DNA of 34,765 nucleotides, from the IMG/VR virus record IMGVR_UViG_3300011335_000591, positions 1-34,765 of that record, one strand, 5' to 3'. The first letter of the stretch is position 1; each line of letters begins with the position of its first letter. A program made the translations under genes and the position numbers. The notes below the pieces were generated by a model. The model did no database searches, had not been told where the DNA came from, and saw only the letters and a list, made by a program, of their open reading frames with translations. This DNA comes from a virus. Taxonomy: Duplodnaviria > Caudoviricetes. Shown here piece by piece: positions 11 to 33,324 of the stretch.

Positions 11-92
11 CGCGACTTTTTTGTGCGAATTGACTCATCAACCTTTATGTCAAACACTTATACCATAAATCTTGCGTAACTTTTTTAACCCT

Positions 93-1292
93 ATGAAATA
101 CCCCTGCCTACTAACCAAAAAAATAAACGAAATCTCCTCGGCAAAATATAACCCAAGAAAAATTACCGATGAAGCGATGGGTCGATTGACCAAGAGCCTA
201 GCGGAGTTTGGAAACATCCAGCCGATCACTTGGAATGTGCGAACTGGGAATGTGGTGGGAGGCCACCAGAGGCTCAAAGTCTATAAGGCTATGGGCAAAA
301 CCGAGGTGGATGTTTGGGCGGTCGATCTAGATGAGCAGAAGGAGAAGGCGGCCAACATCGCCCTCAACAAGTTAAGCGGAGAGTTCGATATGCCAATGCT
401 CAAAGATATCCTAGAAGAAATCGATACTGGCGATCTAGATATGGAAATTACTGGGTTCGGCATGGACGAGATTGCTTTGATGATGGAGGACGCACACCCA
501 GAAATCACCGAGGACGAAGTACCAGAAGTTCCAGTCGATGCGATCACCAAGCCGGGTGACTTGTGGCTTCTTGGTGAACATAGGGTGCTTTGTGGGGACT
601 CAACAAGCGAGGCAGATGTGTCTAGGCTTATGAATGGAGAAAAGGCAGATATGGTTTTTACCGACCCGCCTTATGGGGTCAATTACGATGGAGGACACGC
701 AACAGATAAGCGGAGAGAAAAACTTAAAAACGACAACTCCACGCTAATCTACGATGACTCTGTTCCAAATATGTTTAAGCACTCGAAGGATGAGGCCGCC
801 CTATACTTATGGTTTGCCGCCACCAAGTCGCTCCAAGTCCTCCAAGTCCTCCAAGTCCTCCAAGTCCTCCAAGCAAATAATTATGTAATTCGCAGTTGGC
901 TCATTTGGAATAAAAATCAAGCTCAATTTGGAGCTATTGGAGCACAATATAAACAGAAACACGAACCCTGCTTGTATTGTTTCAAAAAAGGAGAAAGCCC
1001 ATATTGGAACGGCCCAAACAACGAAGTTTCTGTTTGGGACGAAAAGCGTTCAAGAATAAACGAATTTCACCCGACACAAAAGCCAGTAGAACTATCCGGC
1101 AGGGCATTGGCAAATTCTTGCCCAGCAAGCGGCTTGGTTCTTGATTTATTTCTGGGTTCTGGTGCAACTCTTATTGGTGCAGAGCAAACAAAACGCAAAT
1201 GCTACGGAATGGAAATCAGCCCCAACTACTGCGATGTGATTGTGAAGCGATGGGAAAACCTTACTGGCAAAAAGGCCACGCTTGCCAAATGA
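93..1292 (+). CDS. ParB-like N-terminal domain fused to N6-adenine/N4-cytosine DNA methyltransferase (beta class)
   Basis: YNPRKI...VVGGHQRL ParB-like motifs; LGEHRVLCGDST, FTDPPY, HPTQKPV, LDLFLGSG motifs. ATG at 93 preferred over the track start at 72. Confidence 0.92.
   Translation: MKYPCLLTKKINEISSAKYNPRKITDEAMGRLTKSLAEFGNIQPITWNVRTGNVVGGHQRLKVYKAMGKTEVDVWAVDLDEQKEKAANIALNKLSGEFDMPMLKDILEEIDTGDLDMEITGFGMDEIALMMEDAHPEITEDEVPEVPVDAITKPGDLWLLGEHRVLCGDSTSEADVSRLMNGEKADMVFTDPPYGVNYDGGHATDKRREKLKNDNSTLIYDDSVPNMFKHSKDEAALYLWFAATKSLQVLQVLQVLQVLQANNYVIRSWLIWNKNQAQFGAIGAQYKQKHEPCLYCFKKGESPYWNGPNNEVSVWDEKRSRINEFHPTQKPVELSGRALANSCPASGLVLDLFLGSGATLIGAEQTKRKCYGMEISPNYCDVIVKRWENLTGKKATLAK
831..873 (+). 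repeat. 9-bp tandem repeat (CTCCAAGTC)x4 plus a partial copy, in frame (LQV)x4-LQ
   Basis: Read directly from sequence. Confidence 0.95.
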
Positions 1293-9781: not shown

Positions 9782-11434
9782 TTGAAATATCCTATCTCAA
9801 TCTATTTAATTGCAGGCAATGAAGAAGAATACATTGGCCGATGTTTGGAAAGTTTCAAACCCATTTCAGCGGAGCTTGTTGTGTGCATCGCTAGGGGGAA
9901 CGCTGTTCCAGACAAAACAGAAGAAATTGCCAAAGGTCTGGGTGCGAAAATCGTTCACTACCAGAATCAAAGAACTGATTGGCCTCACATAGACGATTTT
10001 GCAACTGCTAGGAACACGGCACTAGAGGCTTGTTCGAGCGAGTGGTGTTTATGGGTCGATGCTGACGATGTAATGGCCGAGGATGGGGCAAAGGCGGTCG
10101 AAGAGGCTATTGACCTTGCCATTCAAAAAGACGCTCACCTCGTGGCGTTAAAATACAATGTAGACAACGCTGGCCTCATCCCGCTCCGAGAAGAAATTTC
10201 CAAGAAAGGCACTTGCTACTGGAAAAACCGAGTCCACGAAATGCTTGTCACTAAAGAGCCAAACAAGACGATTGGGGTGGACAAGATTTTCCGCATCCAC
10301 AAGCCCGCTGGATATAAGCCCAAAAGTGCCGAAAGGAACTTTAGAATCCTAGAGGACACGCTTTCAACCGCCCCCAACGCCCTTTATTACCAAGCCCAAG
10401 AATACTTTTTGTCTGGCAAATACGACAAGTGCATTGATTCCAGTATGCGAGCCTTGGGCTTCTCGGAGCTAGAGGACACACTTCGCTATGATGTCTTGTG
10501 CAACCTCGGGAGGTGCGTTCCAGAGAACGAGAGGCTTTCTTATCTTGGACAAGCAGTAGCCTTGCAACCAGACCGCCGAGAAGCTTATTTTTATATAGCA
10601 AATCATTGGGCGGGGAAGGGCAACTGGCTAAAGACGTATGGTTCGGCAAGGGCTTGTATGACCTTGCATAGACCAAAAACCCACTACTGGAATCTTGTCG
10701 AGGCAATCTACAACTGGCAAGCAATGGACTTATACGAGACAGCCTCGGTGTGCGTGGGAGAAACTGGCGAAGCTGAAAAGATTAAGAAGATGCGACCCGC
10801 CCCCAAGATCAGCATTATCCACGCTACAAGAGGAAGGCCACAAGTCGCTTGGCAAAGACGCTGGCAATGGCTTTCCCTAGCTCAAAACCCACTAGAAATT
10901 GAGTGGCTGTTTATGGTCGATCACGACGAGGCCATTGACTACACCCCCCACCAAGCAATCCGAGTGAACCCCGGAGGCATCGTCAACGCTTGGAACGCAG
11001 GGGCAAAAATAGCCAAGGGGGACATTATCGTTCAAATGAGCGATGATTGGACACCACCCCGCCATTGGGATACCCTAATTTTGAACGCTATTGGGGATAC
11101 AAAGGCAGAGAAAGTGTTGGCAGTATCAGATGGCCTCCGAACCGATAAGCTCCTCTGTATGGCGATCTTGACGCAATCTAGGCTCAAGAAGCAGGGGCAT
11201 CTATTCCACCCCGACTACCAAGACTCGGACGGCATATACTCGGATAATGAGTTCACAGAATCAGCACACCAAGACGGAGTGGTAATTGAGGCTAGACAAA
11301 TACAATTCAAGCACGAGAATCCGATGTTCGCAGGGGGCAACCCAGACGAGCAACTAAAAAACCACAACAAGCCGGAGTTCTACGAGAAAGGGAAAGCAAT
11401 CTATGAAAAACGCAAAGCAAATAATTGGATGTAG
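9782..11434 (+). CDS. Double glycosyltransferase: GT2 + TPR repeats + second GT-A domain
   Basis: NEEEYIGRCLES, DFATARN, WVDADD, RVHE; TPR-like helices; second domain AWNAGA..AKGDIIVQMSDD. Confidence 0.88.
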   Translation: MKYPISIYLIAGNEEEYIGRCLESFKPISAELVVCIARGNAVPDKTEEIAKGLGAKIVHYQNQRTDWPHIDDFATARNTALEACSSEWCLWVDADDVMAEDGAKAVEEAIDLAIQKDAHLVALKYNVDNAGLIPLREEISKKGTCYWKNRVHEMLVTKEPNKTIGVDKIFRIHKPAGYKPKSAERNFRILEDTLSTAPNALYYQAQEYFLSGKYDKCIDSSMRALGFSELEDTLRYDVLCNLGRCVPENERLSYLGQAVALQPDRREAYFYIANHWAGKGNWLKTYGSARACMTLHRPKTHYWNLVEAIYNWQAMDLYETASVCVGETGEAEKIKKMRPAPKISIIHATRGRPQVAWQRRWQWLSLAQNPLEIEWLFMVDHDEAIDYTPHQAIRVNPGGIVNAWNAGAKIAKGDIIVQMSDDWTPPRHWDTLILNAIGDTKAEKVLAVSDGLRTDKLLCMAILTQSRLKKQGHLFHPDYQDSDGIYSDNEFTESAHQDGVVIEARQIQFKHENPMFAGGNPDEQLKNHNKPEFYEKGKAIYEKRKANNWM

Positions 11435-11657
11435 GCAATCGCAAAAGGGGGAGCATACGAAGGGGCTTGGTATAATTAAATTCGGAAAGTCTCGCCCTGA
11501 CACCACCAAGTATGTGAAGGTTGATATTACCTATGACGAAAAAGCAGAGAAAGATTTGTACGAGTGTGGGATGATTGCGTTAAAGCACGATAAGGAAGCG
11601 GTGATTCAATATGTGATCGTGAAGGCTCTTACTGGATACGCAAAGTGCAAGAAGTAA
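11403..11657 (+). CDS. Hypothetical protein
   Basis: Fills the gap between GT and MTase genes; start uncertain. Confidence 0.5.
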   Translation: MKNAKQIIGCRQSQKGEHTKGLGIIKFGKSRPDTTKYVKVDITYDEKAEKDLYECGMIALKHDKEAVIQYVIVKALTGYAKCKK

Positions 11658-12253
11658 GCATTAACGATTCATTCGGTAAAGCCCTTGCAAAGTATAGCGA
11701 GGGATTGGATGTTGGCCTAGAGATCGGGGGAGGAACTGGGGACGGCTCGACTCAATGCATTAGGACAAAAAGGCTATTCAGCATTGAGAACCACCCAGAC
11801 CGCATCGGCAGACACTCGATGAATCTATCTGCAAGGGGAGGCGTTTCAGTCAATGGAACTGCAACCTTGTCGAAATTCTGGATGAACAAGAACGACATCG
11901 AGGAGTTCTACCGAATCACAAAAACCAATCTCAATCAGTACCCCATCGAAACAATCCTAGGCTGGCACAATGTATGCCTTGAAACCGCCTACCCATACTC
12001 GACCAACGCAATCGAGGACATCCACTTTGAGCATAATGTGGACTTTGACTTTGTGCTAATTGACGGCTCTCCTTTCTCGGGTGAGGCAGAGTTGCGTTGC
12101 GTTCGTCCTTTTCTAACAGACAAAGCAATCATCGCCCTAGATGATGTGAACGACATAAAGAACCACACCAACTACAACAAGCTCAAGGGATTTGCCAAAC
12201 TGCTCTGGGAAGATTGGTCTGTGCGTAATGGTGCGGCCATATTTGAACTATGA
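11645..12253 (+). CDS. Class I SAM-dependent methyltransferase
   Basis: LEIGGGTGDGST, VLIDGS, ALDDV motifs. Confidence 0.8.
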   Translation: MQEVSINDSFGKALAKYSEGLDVGLEIGGGTGDGSTQCIRTKRLFSIENHPDRIGRHSMNLSARGGVSVNGTATLSKFWMNKNDIEEFYRITKTNLNQYPIETILGWHNVCLETAYPYSTNAIEDIHFEHNVDFDFVLIDGSPFSGEAELRCVRPFLTDKAIIALDDVNDIKNHTNYNKLKGFAKLLWEDWSVRNGAAIFEL

Positions 12254-12762
12254 CCAAGGGAATCATCGCATCGGAATCACCCGAAATCCATTGGCAACAT
12301 CTCAATGTAGCTGGTGGCAGGGTGCTTGACTTGGGGTGTGCGTTCTGGACGGAAGCAGAAAGGCAAGAGGCCAACGGAACGACCAAGTATTTTCTATCTC
12401 AAAAACCAGAGTTTTATATGGGGGTGGACATAAACCAAGGAGACATTCAAACCCTTTCTCAACAATACCCACAAGGAAAGTTCTTGTGCGAAAAGGCAGA
12501 CTCCGCACCTCAAATGAACACTTGGATAACAGAGAATTCTATCACCCACATTAAGTGTGACATCGAAGGAGATGAGACTCAACTTCTGCAAATTGGGAAT
12601 GTCCATAATCTAAAAGAAATTGCCATTGAGCTACACTATTCAGACGCTTGGCTAAATGAGTTTGTAGCTTGGTTTGGTTCGATTGGGTTTGAGTGCTACC
12701 GGCACGACTCGGCTTCTTTTTGTCCAGAGATTAGCGTTATTTATGGGCGATTGAAATGCTAA
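12250..12762 (+). CDS. FkbM-like SAM methyltransferase
   Basis: VLDLGC, GVD, IKCDIEGDE, IELH motifs. Confidence 0.78.
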   Translation: MTKGIIASESPEIHWQHLNVAGGRVLDLGCAFWTEAERQEANGTTKYFLSQKPEFYMGVDINQGDIQTLSQQYPQGKFLCEKADSAPQMNTWITENSITHIKCDIEGDETQLLQIGNVHNLKEIAIELHYSDAWLNEFVAWFGSIGFECYRHDSASFCPEISVIYGRLKC

Positions 12763-13523
12763 CCATCTTTACCGTCGTCCTCAATGGGATGCCCTATATT
12801 GAAAGGCATCTTGCAGAGTTTCAAAAGCTCAAGATTCCTTGGCAATGGAGGATTGTAGAGGGAGTTAGCGAGCCTCTTGGATGCACTCGATGGTGCAAGC
12901 AAGTTCCCGACAAATGGCACAAGGACTTCAAAAGCATTGACGGAACGCACGAATATCTCGAGAGCATTAGGTGCGAGAATGTTTCTGTTTATTGGCGGGC
13001 AAAGCCTTTCCCCGGCAAGCTGGCGATGATTAACGAGGCGTTGCAGGGGGTGGAGAATGGCGTGGTGATGCAGATGGATTCTGATGAGATATGGAGAGCC
13101 GACCAACTAGAGGCAATCTTTGGGCATCTCAAAGGATGCGAGGATGGGAGAGGTATGCAGTTTCATTGTAACTACTATGTTGGGCAGAATAAAAAAGTAG
13201 TGACTAGAGATGGCTTTGGCTCGAATTGGTATGAATGGTTTCGGGCGTGGAAGTGGGGGAAGGATGTTCACTTTACCAGCCACGAACCACCCAAGCTGAA
13301 TGTCCAATCGATGATGATTCCAAGGGGAGTGACAGAAACTTGGGGGCTAACCTTTGACCACTTCGCCTATGCCACAAAGGAGCAAGCACAATTCAAAGAA
13401 GATTTCTATGGGTATAAGGGGCTAGTCGAGGGATGGGAAAAGCTACAACAAACCACAAGTCCAGTTCGGTTGAGAGATTACTTCCCATTCATAACAGATA
13501 AGAGCGTAGTCGATGAGTGTTAA
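12756..13523 (+). CDS. Glycosyltransferase (GT2-like)
   Basis: VLNGMPYI, SIDGT.EYL, MQMDSDEIW (DxD). Confidence 0.8.
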   Translation: MLTIFTVVLNGMPYIERHLAEFQKLKIPWQWRIVEGVSEPLGCTRWCKQVPDKWHKDFKSIDGTHEYLESIRCENVSVYWRAKPFPGKLAMINEALQGVENGVVMQMDSDEIWRADQLEAIFGHLKGCEDGRGMQFHCNYYVGQNKKVVTRDGFGSNWYEWFRAWKWGKDVHFTSHEPPKLNVQSMMIPRGVTETWGLTFDHFAYATKEQAQFKEDFYGYKGLVEGWEKLQQTTSPVRLRDYFPFITDKSVVDEC

Positions 13524-14184
13524 AAGTATTAAGTATTCGCAGAGGCTAGGGGATGTTCTTCGTTGCCTTCCTGCTTGCAAGTACCTAGCCGACCAAGGCC
13601 ACGAAGTTTTCTTTGATTGCTTCCCTCAATATCATTCGGTCTTTGATCTTGTCTCCTATGTAAAAGCGGGGAGCAAAGGGGATGTTTTAGATTTGGAGAT
13701 ATGGCCGAACAAATATGAGGCTTACCGCAAAAGCAAAAGAAGCTGGACGGACTTTGTATATAGTCACCCAGAGATAAAGGACGCAGACAAGACGAACATT
13801 ATCTTCGACAAGCTAGATGATAAACCAGCCGAAGGACTTCCAGAGTCTTACAACCTAGTGGCCGCCTTTGGCAATAGCCAAGGATTCTATCGCAATCCTC
13901 TCGACATAATCACCAAGGCAAGAACTGATATGGGCAAAGACAACTTCTATGTGATGACCCCCCCAGAGATTCAGATTCAAGGGCTTTCTACCTACACCGC
14001 CCCATCGGTTGAGCAGATGGCAAAGGCAATTAGAGGGGCAAAGGATTTCTGGGCAATCAATAGTGCGCCCATCATTCTTGCGTCAGTAGTGAGAAGGGGC
14101 AAACCGACTGCCTTCTTTCCCCAAAAGAACGAGTGGGAGACTGACAACATATTTGATTTTGAGGGGATGTTTAAGATGGATTGA
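13513..14184 (+). CDS. Glycosyltransferase (GT9/heptosyltransferase-like, GT-B)
   Basis: RLGDVLRCLP N-terminal and INSAP..LAS C-terminal motifs. Confidence 0.65.
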   Translation: MSVKSIKYSQRLGDVLRCLPACKYLADQGHEVFFDCFPQYHSVFDLVSYVKAGSKGDVLDLEIWPNKYEAYRKSKRSWTDFVYSHPEIKDADKTNIIFDKLDDKPAEGLPESYNLVAAFGNSQGFYRNPLDIITKARTDMGKDNFYVMTPPEIQIQGLSTYTAPSVEQMAKAIRGAKDFWAINSAPIILASVVRRGKPTAFFPQKNEWETDNIFDFEGMFKMD

Positions 14185-30181: not shown

Positions 30182-30387
30182 GCGTTAAAAGATTAAGCCT
30201 TGTCGATGAGTTTCACGGATTGGTTAGTAGAAGATTAAAAGACTTGTTTAAGAGATTGAACCACGCAGAAGTGGAAAACTTTAAGGATATCATCAGCCAC
30301 CTTGACTACTCGCATCGTATAACCAAAGAGCTACTGGAGCGTGCCAAGAAATACCAAAAGCGAGATGTGGAAAAGGCAAAGAAGTGA
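30178..30387 (+). CDS. Hypothetical helical protein
   Basis: GGAGGAG SD; coupled to neighbours. Confidence 0.65.
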   Translation: MSVKRLSLVDEFHGLVSRRLKDLFKRLNHAEVENFKDIISHLDYSHRITKELLERAKKYQKRDVEKAKK

Positions 30388-31151
30388 AGCGAGATTCTTT
30401 CTGGTTTCCCTTTGAGCCGAACCGCTGGCTATCTAACGAGAAGCTATCGTTGGTGAGTCTCGAGGCCAAGGGGCTATGGATTCACCTAGTCTGCCTCATC
30501 TACAAGGCCAACGCCGGCGGCAGGCTGGTTATCAACGGCAACCCGCCCACCCCAGAACAGATCAGCCGAATGGTTGGGCAAGATGCCAACCCACTTCTAA
30601 AAGAGCTTGAGGTTGCAGGGGTTTATGAGATTAAAGATGGGGCAATCTACCACGGCGGCACGGCTGAAACCCTAGCAGATATGAACAAAAGATCGGCTGG
30701 GTACGCTTCAAGATCAACCAAAGATAGACCATCTATGAGCCATAGATGCGCCATAGATGAGCCATCTATGCACCATCTATCGTCCATAGATGAGCAAAAG
30801 ATGGGACACAATAACAATAACAATAACAATAACAATAAGAAAGAGAGAGGGGGCTTGCGCCCCACGCACGCTGAATGGATTGCCTTTGCTAAAGAAATTG
30901 GGTGGAGGCATACGGATGCGGAGTCGGCTTTTGATTACTACCAGAGCAACGGATGGAAGGTCGGGGGCAGGGCATCGGTCAAGGATTGGAGGGCTTGTGC
31001 CAGAAATTGTCAGCGCAGAAGCAACCAACAACCAACCAAAGGAAACCAACCAATGAAGAAACCAATCAAATCGGGGTGCGAATCCCCTCCAACTTACAAA
31101 ATTATGGGCTTTCAGACGCTTGAGGCGTGGGAAAAGGCAGGGTGTCCGTGA
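30384..31151 (+). CDS. Replication initiator protein
   Basis: WFPF....WL...SLEAKGLWI.L N-terminus, central iteron linker, FDYYQSNGWKVG...KDWRA C-terminus. Confidence 0.82.
   Translation: MKRDSFWFPFEPNRWLSNEKLSLVSLEAKGLWIHLVCLIYKANAGGRLVINGNPPTPEQISRMVGQDANPLLKELEVAGVYEIKDGAIYHGGTAETLADMNKRSAGYASRSTKDRPSMSHRCAIDEPSMHHLSSIDEQKMGHNNNNNNNNNKKERGGLRPTHAEWIAFAKEIGWRHTDAESAFDYYQSNGWKVGGRASVKDWRACARNCQRRSNQQPTKGNQPMKKPIKSGCESPPTYKIMGFQTLEAWEKAGCP
30718..30838. repeat. Putative replication origin: 11-bp periodic iterons (CCATAGATG/CCATCTATG) followed by (CAATAA)x5
   Basis: Six good units at 30729-30794 plus degenerate flanks; AT-rich repeat at 30809-30838. Confidence 0.8.
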
Positions 31152-31543
31152 ACGACCTTGTTTTAGCGGCCACAATCCATAGGGTGAAGCTATGCGAGGA
31201 CAAAATTGCCCAATTTGAGCAACTCATAAGCACACTCACCGCCCAAATGGCTCATAATCGCTCAGAATTGGCCTCCAAAGGGCTGGCAAACCTAGTTATG
31301 GGCACAACCACCCCCCTAGACATCCCAAGGGAGCTACGGCCAACCTTCGGGCGTTATCGGGCAAGGGGAAATCGTTCCCACAACACAGTCCAGAAGCGGT
31401 GGGGTATTTGGAAGGCTCAATATGAGTCTGGGCTAACAGTAAAGGAGATTGCAAACGCTTGGGGGTGTCATCATTCCTCAATCGTGAACGCAAAAAGCAA
31501 AAACTTCACGGCTCGGAAGTCAACTGGGAGGGCAATCAAATGA
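31148..31543 (+). CDS. Coiled-coil plus C-terminal HTH protein
   Basis: GLTVKEIANAWGCHHSSI; GTGA overlap. Confidence 0.65.
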   Translation: MNDLVLAATIHRVKLCEDKIAQFEQLISTLTAQMAHNRSELASKGLANLVMGTTTPLDIPRELRPTFGRYRARGNRSHNTVQKRWGIWKAQYESGLTVKEIANAWGCHHSSIVNAKSKNFTARKSTGRAIK

Positions 31544-31806
31544 TAGCCTTGCTAGAAGCAGAGCAGTTTGAGTTGCCCTTTATGCGAACCACGCACCCAG
31601 TAAAGACGGAAGGCCACGACCAGAACGCCCGCATCCTAGCCCACTTGCAGGCAGGCCGAACACTCACGGCTCTGGAGGCGCTGGAATGGTTCAAGTGCTT
31701 CCGCTTGGCAAGCCGAGTGTGCGACTTGCGGAAGGCTGGACACGATGTGCAGAAGCGAACCATAAAGACGAACAGCGGAAAGAGCGTAGCGGAGTATTAT
31801 TTATGA
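31540..31806 (+). CDS. Winged-helix protein
   Basis: QNARILAHL..G.TLT.LEA...F.CFRLASRV.DLR..G motif; ATGA overlaps. Confidence 0.75.
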   Translation: MIALLEAEQFELPFMRTTHPVKTEGHDQNARILAHLQAGRTLTALEALEWFKCFRLASRVCDLRKAGHDVQKRTIKTNSGKSVAEYYL

Positions 31807-32471
31807 GTTTTGGCGGCGATAGCTCAACAGTAGAGCTTCCCCTATTCCAAGGGGAGGATGGCGGTGCAATTCCGACCTCGCCGCTCCAACTTTTGTTTAG
31901 GCCAATCAAATATATTACGGCGAATAACTTCTTAGTGAAATGGCATTACCTGCACAGGCAAGCCCCAACAAGTTTTTCGTATGGTGCATATTTTTCTGGA
32001 GAAATCATAGGAGCCTGTACCATAGGCAAACCAGCGAGCCATACCCTTCTTAGTGGAGTTGCTGGCAAGGAAAGGGCGGCTGATGTTTTTGAATTAAACA
32101 GACTATGTTTTTTGGATGAAGCCCCGAAAAATTCAGAAAGCAGATTCATCGGATGGGTGATTAGGCAAATGGCAAAATCTACAATCCTAGTTTCATATGC
32201 AGACACGGCACAGGGACACTCTGGGATTGTATATAAAGCAACAAACTGGATTTACACGGGCACAACAATCCCATTTACAGACTACACCCTTGGAGGGTTA
32301 GACCATAGGAGCGTGCCCAAGCATTTAAGAGATAAGTCAAAGATGCAAAAAGTAGTCCGTAGTAAGAAGCATCGATTCGTTTATTTTTGCAACCCAGAGG
32401 ACAGAATGCTTCTGAAGTGGGGTGTAGAACAACCTAAAACTACCCCTTGCATCAAACCAGACTCAAAGTAA
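31803..32471 (+). CDS. mom: Mom-like GNAT-fold DNA adenine modification enzyme
   Basis: HYLHR, ELNRL, KNSESRFI, LVSYAD..QGH.G.VYKATNW.Y.G, KHRFVY motifs; ATG 31803 overlaps the upstream TGA. Confidence 0.85.
   Translation: MSFGGDSSTVELPLFQGEDGGAIPTSPLQLLFRPIKYITANNFLVKWHYLHRQAPTSFSYGAYFSGEIIGACTIGKPASHTLLSGVAGKERAADVFELNRLCFLDEAPKNSESRFIGWVIRQMAKSTILVSYADTAQGHSGIVYKATNWIYTGTTIPFTDYTLGGLDHRSVPKHLRDKSKMQKVVRSKKHRFVYFCNPEDRMLLKWGVEQPKTTPCIKPDSK
31813..31888 (+). tRNA. tRNA-Gly(TCC)-like cloverleaf, non-canonical, inside the mom coding sequence
   Basis: GCGGCGA/TCGCCGC acceptor, T73, CCA, GCTC/GAGC D stem, TCCCC/GGGGA stem around TATTCCAA, GGCGG/CCG(A)CC T stem. Confidence 0.8.
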
Positions 32472-32486
32472 GTTGCAAACTTGATG
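32447..32486 (+). promoter_or_regulatory. Sigma70-like promoter, probably leaderless
   Basis: TTGCAT-N16-TAAGTT, then 6 nt to TTG ATG; same geometry as 27134. Confidence 0.45.
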
Positions 32487-32780
32487 AACGAAACCTATAC
32501 AACGCCCGAGGTAAAGGCGAATGGCATCCTTACTGACCGCTACCCCGGCAAGGAACTAGAAAAACTTTACGCCACGACCCGCAACCAAGCCACGATTGAT
32601 ATGCTTCGAGACGCCGTGTTCACGCTAATCACCAACGAAATCCCAACCTGCACGATTGCGGAAGTGCTAAAGAAAACCCACGGAGCAATCCAGTACCACC
32701 TTCGATATCTTGAGGGCAGGGGCAAGATCAAAAGGCCAAATAAGAGGTGTCATTGGACGGAGGTGAAGCGTGAAGATTAA
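32481..32780 (+). CDS. HTH DNA-binding protein
   Basis: TIAEVLKKTHGAIQYHL. Confidence 0.7.
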   Translation: MMNETYTTPEVKANGILTDRYPGKELEKLYATTRNQATIDMLRDAVFTLITNEIPTCTIAEVLKKTHGAIQYHLRYLEGRGKIKRPNKRCHWTEVKRED

Positions 32781-33324
32781 CAAGATGGAGGCCAAGGCAA
32801 TCGAGGCACAGATCGATAAACTCAAGACCCCGATTGACAACGCAGAAGGCAAAAGAACCAAGGGAGACGAATCCCCATCGAGACGCTATCAGCACCTATG
32901 CGAGCGACTCCACTTCTTAACGATGAAAAAAGCCATCATCATCCTAGCCATCACGCTCTTAACCTCGGTGCAGGGTGCGAACATCCTCATTGAAACCCCA
33001 AAGCCACCAGCCAAGAAAACCATCAAGGCTCGCATCACGGCGTACTGGCTAGGCGAGGACGAGTTTGGTTGGAAAAGCTCAACTGGAAAACGGTTGGTTT
33101 CTGGCAAGTCTTGTGCCGTTGACCCAAAAATTATCCCCTACGGAACGACCCTGCTAATCGAGGGCAAGGCATATCACGCCCACGACACCGGAACGGCAGT
33201 CATATCACGAAAGGCATCGGGCAAATCTAGGTTGCCAGTCGTTGACCTTTTCTACGCATCAGAACGGCAGGCGAGGCGGGAGTTGGCGAGGGTAGGACGG
33301 ACAGCGGTTGTGGAAATCCAATAA
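32770..33324 (+). CDS. 3D-domain (Asp-Asp-Asp) cell-wall glycosidase-like protein
   Basis: ITAY, AVDPKIIPYGT, DTG, VDLF; signal peptide from the internal ATG 32923. Confidence 0.8.
   Translation: MKINKMEAKAIEAQIDKLKTPIDNAEGKRTKGDESPSRRYQHLCERLHFLTMKKAIIILAITLLTSVQGANILIETPKPPAKKTIKARITAYWLGEDEFGWKSSTGKRLVSGKSCAVDPKIIPYGTTLLIEGKAYHAHDTGTAVISRKASGKSRLPVVDLFYASERQARRELARVGRTAVVEIQ

What the first reader, a model, noticed from the sequence alone, without database searches (positions are those of the whole stretch)
31813..31888. The tRNA-like element looks tuned to be charged but not used in translation
Seen: deviations are confined to the non-identity parts. The D-loop AACAGTA has A in place of G18, and the T-loop TGCAATT has G in place of U55, so both partners of the G18-U55 elbow contact changed while G19-C56 and U54-A58 are kept. 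The T stem has a bulged A (GGCGG/CCGACC), and the anticodon loop is 8 nt (or 7 nt with a distorted stem). Established: the T stem sets EF-Tu affinity, and staphylococcal non-proteinogenic tRNA-Gly species for cell-wall synthesis have altered GG/TTC motifs and bind EF-Tu poorly. Inference: selected escape from EF-Tu, and possibly from anticodon nucleases, rather than random decay.
Basis: partly seen in the sequence, partly recalled or inferred. Interest (0 to 1): 0.75.

Follow-up and report, generated by a model that had tools for sequence, protein, structure and literature searches.

The report
Glycine tRNA hidden inside Mom gene
This phage writes a glycine-tRNA-shaped RNA, in reading frame, into the start of its gene for a Mom-family enzyme (a family whose studied member takes glycine from charged tRNA to disguise DNA), and the RNA is likely cut out and used as that enzyme's private glycine carrier rather than for making protein.

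Summary
Mu Mom takes glycine from Gly-tRNA-Gly. Searches on the RNA alone found this element family beside or inside mom in 74 of 80 loci, at the 5' or the 3' end. Ordinary unbulged tRNA ends were beside mom in 1 of 140. Across 162 distinct copies, glycine identity is kept (G1-C72, C35C36, U73), the stems covary and the T-stem bulge persists, while positions 33 and 34 drift. This fits charging without decoding, not decay. Two corrections: A18/G55 is a compensated elbow swap (G55 went with A18 in 47 of 47), and the '8-nt loop' is a 6-nt loop closed by a covarying pair; its extra base likely keeps a stop codon out of frame. Best reading (0.62): a Mom-dedicated glycyl donor released from the mom mRNA. 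Main rival: a cis-acting tRNA mimic. Excision, charging and EF-Tu escape are untested. Not found in nine literature searches; this scan noted the embedded RNA once before on other DNA.

The parts
31813..31888 (+). tRNA-Gly(UCC)-like cloverleaf with encoded CCA; also codons 4-29 of the Mom ORF
   Evidence: covariation in 52 homologs
31813..31819 (+). acceptor stem 5' strand (pairs with 31878-31884): G1-C72, C2-G71, G3-C70; U73 at 31885; CCA at 31886-31888
   Evidence: glycine identity set from PMC9976931
31826..31832 (+). D-loop with A18 (31829) and G19 (31830); A18 covaries with G55 (31866)
31838..31855 (+). anticodon arm: 6-bp stem and 6-nt loop (31844-31849), C35C36 at 31847-31848, one extra base 5' of the anticodon
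31860..31877 (+). T arm: G49-C65, G50-C64, C51-G63, with a bulged A at 31875 in the EF-Tu contact region
31803..32471 (+). Mom-family GNAT gene, 222 aa; ATG overlaps the upstream stop (ATGA); Mom domain residues 30-205; first ~25 residues predicted with low confidence (likely disordered)
31540..31806 (+). upstream winged-HTH gene whose stop overlaps the mom start (likely translational coupling)

Best explanation
The element is a glycine-tRNA-like cloverleaf written in frame into the first codons of a phage mom gene, and it likely serves as a private glycine carrier: it would be cut out of the mom transcript by host tRNA-processing nucleases, glycylated by host GlyRS, largely ignored by EF-Tu and the ribosome, and used by Mom to put glycine on adenine in phage DNA. 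Shown: position and frame, conserved structure, glycine identity set, T-stem bulge, tight link to mom at either end, drift of decoding positions. From the literature: Mu Mom uses Gly-tRNA-Gly; EF-Tu reads pairs 49-65, 50-64 and 51-63 and can starve a glycyl transferase by sequestering its tRNA. Inferred: excision, charging, weak EF-Tu binding caused by the bulge, use by this Mom. A likely consequence of the embedding is that one transcript gives either enzyme or donor RNA, because excision destroys the message; this would also limit a toxic enzyme.
For: (1) Link to mom. An RNA-only pattern scan gave 74 of 80 long-flank loci with mom adjacent: 34 with mom downstream, 40 upstream (one of the 40 below the Pfam cut-off); 3 more are cut short by contig ends and 3 show no Mom. 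With the bulge base left free, 59 of 65 A-bulged cloverleafs were mom-adjacent. Unbulged control: 1 of 140 matches, 1 of 50 glycine-like. (2) RNA structure is selected: 97.6% of cells paired, 17 of 22 pairs with two-sided change, slid controls 44-54%; RNAalifold finds the cloverleaf unprompted. (3) Charging marks kept, decoding marks free; base 38 is paired in 115 of 126 copies against 5 of 38 control UCC tRNAs. (4) The bulged A stays while flanking pairs change: 40 of 40 protein-found copies, 7 T-stem types. (5) Four unbulged mom-side copies have weak EF-Tu pairs instead (+1.1, +1.4, +1.1, +0.5 kcal/mol, worked by hand from Table 2 of PMC3239215, with sequences; control mean -0.33). (6) The 3' end matters: 90 of 96 protein homologs with the peptide have Gln at the CCA codon with no selection for it, and the base after CCA is free. 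(7) Position is flexible (82 at 5', 71 at 3'; not open in the mom frame in 14 of these 153; non-coding in Salinibacter phage B2_17), as expected for a trans-acting RNA. (8) Mom chemistry: PMC13219725.
Against: No expression, processing, charging or EF-Tu data. Mu Mom works with all three ordinary E. coli tRNA-Gly species, and most mom genes have no element nearby: present at 14 of 80 viral and about 22 of 56 prokaryote loci chosen by the Mom core; absent in Mu, phiEf11, JeffCo and phiSA_BS1. The window's T-stem pairs alone score only +0.1, 0.4 above the control mean, so the EF-Tu claim rests on a bulge that the published model does not cover. The window's leader has G at -1, seen in 1 of 104 control tRNAs and 14 of about 152 elements, which is atypical for RNase P. 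Mu Mom R151 aligns to Ala136 here, and this enzyme's activity is unshown. 25 of 71 3'-class copies lack a full D arm, and some lack CCA.
Confidence: 0.62

Rival explanations
1. Cis-acting tRNA mimic: the cloverleaf stays in the mRNA and is bound by Mom (or GlyRS), or simply blocks the ribosome, to hold down a toxic enzyme; it is never released as a donor.
For: In 65 of 78 in-frame 5' copies a start codon lies within 36 nt upstream, 49 of them overlapping a stop. In 6 of 8 copies with no upstream start, the acceptor strand holds a Shine-Dalgarno-like motif and the D-loop holds the start codon, against 1 of 69 others. Mom overexpression is lethal and tightly regulated in Mu (10.1101/861617, passages). 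The window's leader is atypical for RNase P.
Against: 71 copies lie at the 3' end of mom or past its stop, where they cannot gate mom initiation. Conservation stops at CCA or the discriminator. An EF-Tu-site bulge, or weak T-stem pairs, would be pointless for an RNA that is never charged.
Confidence: 0.2
2. Decoy or sensor: the RNA is released and perhaps charged, but works by soaking up a host tRNA-targeting defence or GlyRS rather than feeding Mom.
For: The sealed, non-canonical anticodon loop could resist or bait anticodon nucleases (inference). Mom does not need a special tRNA.
Against: It does not explain why the RNA sits in or beside mom in 74 of 80 loci, while ordinary tRNA ends do so in 1 of 140.
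Confidence: 0.08
3. A working translational tRNA (glycine supplement or +1 frameshift suppressor).
For: Passes the Rfam tRNA cut-off; elbow and CCA are kept; the window copy has U before the UCC and one extra loop base.
Against: Position 34 is A in 40 of 159 copies and U33 is absent in 74. The extra base is mostly confined to the 5' class (59 of 80, against 3 of 44 in the 3' class), where 43 of 58 copies would have an in-frame stop without it.
Confidence: 0.05
4. Relic or recombination anchor: an old tRNA or attachment site absorbed into the ORF and kept for its peptide or as homology for swapping mom genes.
For: Near-identical elements precede very different Mom bodies: 0-3 mismatches in the element against 47-79% identity over the next 300 nt. 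The 5' element is scattered over the Mom tree (15 changes, at least 8 forced). The same frame is used at both ends of mom.
Against: Two-sided base-pair changes, with amino acids changing to match. The peptide region has low model confidence, pLDDT 45-60. No integrase among the 48 window ORFs scanned with PHROGs or the 16 scanned with Pfam. Non-coding copies exist.
Confidence: 0.05

Closest known systems
Non-proteogenic tRNA-Gly NP1-NP3 of Staphylococcus aureus, donors for FmhB/FemA/FemB (PMC7826273, passages read; PMC3239215, passages and section 10 read)
   Same: Glycine identity kept, predicted weak EF-Tu binding through the T stem, an extra pair in the anticodon stem, and a GNAT-fold glycyl transferase as the consumer.
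   Different: Phage-borne; lies inside or beside the transferase's own gene; uses a bulged A rather than A49-U65/U50-A64/A51-U63; the target is DNA, not peptidoglycan; no biochemical proof here.
Phage Mu Mom, Gly-tRNA-Gly-dependent adenine hypermodification (PMC13219725: abstract, sections 9, 10, 13, 14 and passages read; PDB 8bv8)
   Same: Pfam Mom domain; H58, Y59, R111, S124, D149 and Y159 have counterparts.
   Different: Mu uses host tRNA-Gly and has no such element; Mu controls mom through Com; R151 is not kept here; the main text mentions no phage-encoded donor tRNA.
Irregular tRNAs of Mukai et al. (8/4 and 9/3 allo-tRNAs, bulged A51a SelC* tRNA-Cys; PMC5389517, passages read)
   Same: Non-canonical acceptor/T branch, a bulge, and some species charged but not used in translation.
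   Different: Those have 8/4 or 9/3 branches with a bulge at 51a; this has 7/5 with the bulge on the 3' strand at 63/64, glycine identity and a mom link.
thrS operator and other tRNA mimics in mRNA (recalled, not checked here)
   Same: A tRNA-like structure at the 5' end of an mRNA for a tRNA-binding enzyme.
   Different: Here it is a complete cloverleaf with CCA, inside the coding sequence, and it also occurs at the 3' end.

Membership tests
tRNA (Rfam RF00005) | Score above the family cut-off; cloverleaf supported by covariation | tested here: met
   32.3 bits against 29; 17 of 22 pairs with two-sided change
canonical elongator tRNA | G18 and U55; 7-nt anticodon loop; unbroken 5-bp T stem | tested here: not met
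   A18, G55, 6-nt loop closed by a covarying pair, bulged A; ARAGORN finds nothing
bacterial tRNA-Gly identity | G1-C72, C2-G71, C35, C36, U73 (PMC9976931) | tested here: met
   All present in the window; G1C2G3 160, C35C36 159, U73 155 of 162 copies. The DNA patterns fixed 70-72 and U/A at 73.
bacterial tRNA-Gly identity | Glycylation by GlyRS | not testable with these tools
   needs an aminoacylation assay
staphylococcal non-proteogenic tRNA-Gly | T-stem A49-U65, U50-A64, A51-U63; lineage confined to staphylococci | tested here: not met
   Window has G49-C65, G50-C64, C51-G63 plus a bulge; found in phages and Chloroflexota MAG contigs; absent at the mom of Staphylococcus phage phiSA_BS1
staphylococcal non-proteogenic tRNA-Gly | Weak EF-Tu binding | tested here: inconclusive
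   Additive model gives +0.1 against a control mean of -0.33 and +0.6 for the staphylococcal NP pairs; the bulge is not modelled
Mom (PF25680) | Profile match and relation to the solved Mu Mom | tested here: met
   Pfam 121 bits against 27, E 5.7e-35; PHROG 1384 E 1e-46; 8bv8 E 1.3e-8
Mom (PF25680) | Active-site residues H58, Y59, R111, S124, D149, R151, Y159 | tested here: inconclusive
   Six of seven kept (H48, Y49, R100, S113, D134, Y144); R151 aligns to A136
Mom (PF25680) | Makes 6-NcmdA from Gly-tRNA-Gly | not testable with these tools
   needs nucleoside LC-MS
attP in a tRNA gene | Partial canonical tRNA copy next to an integrase | tested here: not met
   Whole, non-canonical cloverleaf; no integrase hit among the ORFs scanned

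The most novel reading that the evidence does not exclude
A widespread phage gene design in which an enzyme's mRNA contains its own co-substrate: the mom transcript is either translated into Mom or cut to release a ribosome-excluded glycyl-tRNA that Mom consumes. [quoted passage not shown] A bulged A at 63/64 is a new EF-Tu antideterminant.
Probability: 0.4. Interest if true: 0.92.

Novelty: new variant of a known kind. Interest (0 to 1): 0.82.

Why it matters
Dedicated non-ribosomal tRNAs are proven only in staphylococci (PMC7826273). A phage family of them would answer how Mom gets Gly-tRNA past abundant EF-Tu during infection. It would also show a full tRNA overlapping a protein-coding frame under dual selection, and supply natural EF-Tu antideterminants and an A18/G55 elbow variant for tRNA engineering. 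It explains a tRNA-derived peptide on many annotated Mom proteins, and the RNAs are mostly invisible to ARAGORN and Rfam. Culturable examples exist (Arthrobacter phages, Salinibacter phage B2_17), so the idea is directly testable.

Tried and rejected
RNA evidence: four metatranscriptome runs held only small shares, as contigs. Pieces cover part of the element (one contig 31744-31901), but contigs show no ends, strand or level, so nothing is concluded. The tblastn match to Staphylococcus phage phiSA_BS1 starting at residue 9 was spurious: no element there. blastn of the element against cultured phages: no match. No sigma-70 promoter in 30300-32800 (0 found, 2.4 expected). In 161-nt context the MFE fold differs from the cloverleaf, but the centroid keeps it (z -0.63); not informative. 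An upstream ATG at 31686 was rejected as the start, because relatives have in-frame stops between it and 31803. A18/G55 as a ribosome-escape mark was rejected (covariation). A search for literature on an A18-G55 pair gave 0 papers, so its geometry is unverified. RNase P leader preference: elements resemble control tRNAs only loosely and may be shaped by codons. The FastTree of 183 Mom cores has long branches, and a few rows (L488, L443, L507) may be mis-extracted; it is used only to show scatter. One false parse (L125) was dropped before the 162 count. The 162 set includes copies only if they were mom-adjacent, so its 153 of 162 is not used as an association figure. Supplement file 1 of PMC13219725 could not be read and the bioRxiv supplements are closed; homolog sequences or remarks on tRNA neighbours there were not seen.

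Full report
Observation. The window is a near-complete tailed-phage record (terminase, portal, major head protein, endolysin; 95% complete). It passes the Rfam tRNA cut-off (32.3 bits against 29), folds as a cloverleaf (z -3.27) and is missed by ARAGORN. It is the genome's only tRNA-like match.

Setting. The cloverleaf lies inside an ORF that starts at 31803, overlapping the stop of an HTH gene (ATGA), and it encodes residues 4-29. Residues 30-205 are a Mom domain (Pfam E 5.7e-35; PHROG 1384; PDB 8bv8 E 1.3e-8). Six of seven Mu active-site residues have counterparts; R151 aligns to Ala136. AlphaFold2 gives the core pLDDT above 90 and the first three blocks of ten residues 45, 49 and 60. Mu Mom transfers glycine from Gly-tRNA-Gly to adenine N6 in dsDNA, needs the 3' ribo-A, accepts all three E. 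coli isoacceptors and rejects Gly-tRNA-Ala (PMC13219725: abstract, sections 9, 10, 13, 14 and passages read).

Protein-first evidence. The first locus scan was biased, because one pattern came from the element's peptide: 48 of 49 loci carry the element in frame, behind several unrelated upstream genes. A search with the Mom core only (residues 32-205) returned 577 proteins; 96 of the best 120 carry the tRNA-derived peptide, and 90 of those 96 have Gln at the codon that holds the CA of CCA. Among loci picked by core motifs, a covariance model built from 52 elements found the element at 14 of 80 viral loci, and at about 22 of 56 prokaryote loci, mostly Chloroflexota MAG contigs (L174 is an ordinary tRNA by inspection, and the distant hits in L177 and L183 were not counted). 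Most mom genes therefore lack a neighbouring element, including Mu, phiEf11, JeffCo and phiSA_BS1.

RNA-first evidence and control. A DNA pattern for the bulged T arm, acceptor end and CCA, holding no Mom information, returned 120 loci out of about 740 estimated. Of the 80 fetched with long flanks, 34 have mom directly downstream (33 in frame) and 40 have it directly upstream (one below the Pfam cut-off); three are cut by contig ends and three show no Mom (the 16 weaker downstream hits checked are all Pfam Mom). With the extra base left free, 81 of 119 matches were mom-adjacent: 59 of 65 distinct cloverleafs with a bulged A at 63/64 and 5 of 14 with another bulge. The same pattern without the extra base gave 1 of 140 matches, and 1 of 50 glycine-like tRNAs. 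The family is thus tied to mom, at the 5' end (82 distinct copies) or the 3' end (71), never both.

What is conserved. I parsed 162 distinct copies. Acceptor stems are fully paired in 153. G1C2G3 is kept in 160, U73 in 155 (A73 in 7; the patterns allowed only U or A) and C35C36 in 159. These are the bacterial glycine identity elements (PMC9976931, passages). Decoding features drift: U33 in 85 of 159; position 34 U 111, A 40, C 6, G 2. In an ungapped alignment of 52 copies of the window's build, 97.6% of cells pair and 17 of 22 pairs show two-sided changes, while slid controls give 44-54%; RNAalifold recovers the cloverleaf. These counts are sequences, not events, and the DNA patterns fixed parts of the T arm. 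The 40 copies found through the protein were not selected on the T arm: all 40 have the bulged A, in seven T-stem types. This is selection on RNA structure, not decay.

First, G55 occurs with A18 in 47 of 47 assignable copies and never with G18; G18 goes with U55 in 47; A18/U55 occurs 4 times (leaving out the set where U55 was fixed). Both states occur within several acceptor-stem types, which suggests repeated switching. G19 is kept in 127 of 133 copies with a full D arm. The elbow is probably rebuilt, not broken. I found no paper on the pair. Second, the 8-nt loop is a 6-nt loop closed by a pair kept in 50 of 52 copies. Base 38 is paired in 115 of 126 copies, against 5 of 38 control UCC tRNAs, although control GCC and CCC tRNAs are paired in 12 of 12. 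The extra base belongs mainly to the 5' class (59 of 80, against 3 of 44), and in 43 of 58 such copies its loss would put a stop codon in frame, so it is at least partly a frame keeper.

EF-Tu. The three T-stem pairs set EF-Tu affinity (PMC3239215, section 10 and passages), and EF-Tu inhibits the glycyl transferase FmhB by sequestering ordinary Gly-tRNA (PMC7826273, passages). The window's pairs sum to +0.1 kcal/mol, against -0.33 for 49 control tRNAs and +0.6 for the staphylococcal donors; the bulge lies between two of these pairs and is not covered by the model. Four mom-side copies without a bulge have weak pairs instead (BarretLemon +1.1, Wyborn +1.4, L379 +1.1, L182 +0.5, worked by hand); 7 of 49 controls reach +0.5, one of them L379 itself. 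This is suggestive only.

Translation through the RNA. The element is open in the Mom frame in 80 of 82 5' copies (other frames 13 and 18) and 59 of 71 3' copies. A start codon lies within 36 nt upstream in 65 of 78, and 49 of these overlap a stop. In 8 copies with no upstream start, 6 have a Shine-Dalgarno-like motif in the acceptor strand plus a start codon in the D-loop, and 5 have a -10-like box 6-7 nt before G1, against 1 and 2 of 69 others (five share one acceptor type and may be related). In the 3' class the stop usually follows within 15 codons, or the element lies past the stop, as in Salinibacter phage B2_17. Cutting the tRNA out would separate start from body in the 5' class, or remove the stop in the 3' class. 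Hence the inference that each transcript gives either enzyme or donor RNA, which would suit an enzyme that is lethal on overexpression in Mu (10.1101/861617, passages).

Mechanism and rivals. The most likely reading (0.62) is a Mom-dedicated glycyl donor: released by host processing, charged by GlyRS, kept from EF-Tu, consumed by Mom. Against it: Mom does not need a special tRNA, most mom genes lack one nearby, the window's G at -1 is unusual for an RNase P leader, 25 of 71 3' copies lack a full D arm, and no RNA data bear on it. A cis-acting mimic (0.2) fits the 5' class, but not the 3' and free-standing copies or the conserved 3' end. Decoy (0.08), translational tRNA (0.05) and relic or recombination anchor (0.05) fit worse. 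Exchange of Mom bodies behind an unchanged element is nevertheless evident.

Novelty. It works like the staphylococcal non-proteogenic tRNA-Gly but is not a member of that family. Nine searches of the open library (listings seen, with seven papers opened as cited, among them PMC5389517 and the 2023 Mom preprint in passages) showed no report of a tRNA within or beside mom; subscription journals and one supplement file were not covered. My reading was written down before the look-up of earlier notes. Verdict: a new variant of a known kind, with an unusual dual-coding design; interest 0.82.

Noticed in passing
L559:1231-1301 (Arthrobacter phage BarretLemon), L557:1201-1271 (Wyborn): Unannotated tRNA-Gly(UCC)-like cloverleaf overlapping the 3' end of mom, without bulge or CCA but with weak EF-Tu pairs; similar DNA in 22 Arthrobacter phage records, with similarity ending near the discriminator. 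Rfam misses it.
   Followed up: partly
L556:1457-1529 (Salinibacter phage B2_17): Bulged-A element directly after the mom stop, non-coding, no encoded CCA, annotated simply as tRNA-Gly.
   Followed up: partly
L558:1305-1379, minus strand (Microbacterium phage Antuna): A tRNA-Gly(CCC) with an ordinary T stem faces mom from the opposite strand just after its stop.
   Followed up: no
3'-class loci such as L190, L196, L214, L267: 25 of 71 3'-class elements lack a full D arm (many 69-71 nt) yet keep the acceptor stem, bulged T arm, CC and CCA: possibly minimal D-armless bacterial-side tRNAs.
   Followed up: no
L001-L048, junction at window 31888: Near-identical elements precede Mom bodies of about 30-90% amino-acid identity; identity drops just after CCA, suggesting exchange of catalytic modules at the tRNA 3' end.
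   Followed up: partly
L170:2434-3010: Element followed by about 500 nt of non-Mom sequence before the Mom core; possibly an intron or insertion in mom.
   Followed up: no
L192, L198, L228, L277: Bulged elements with no Mom hit in the flanks held; L198 follows a glycosyltransferase.
   Followed up: no
window 9782-14184: A run of five or six genes between the major head and tail genes, two with glycosyltransferase family 2 matches (one below the cut-off), the rest unassigned; possible virion glycosylation cluster.
   Followed up: no
window 72-1292: ParB-N plus N6/N4 DNA methylase fusion with a short tandem peptide repeat; a second DNA-modifying gene in this phage.
   Followed up: no
window 30725-30840: Short repeated and inverted 9-10-mers followed by a hexamer repeat coding poly-Asn inside a DnaD-like replication gene; possible origin iterons.
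   Followed up: no
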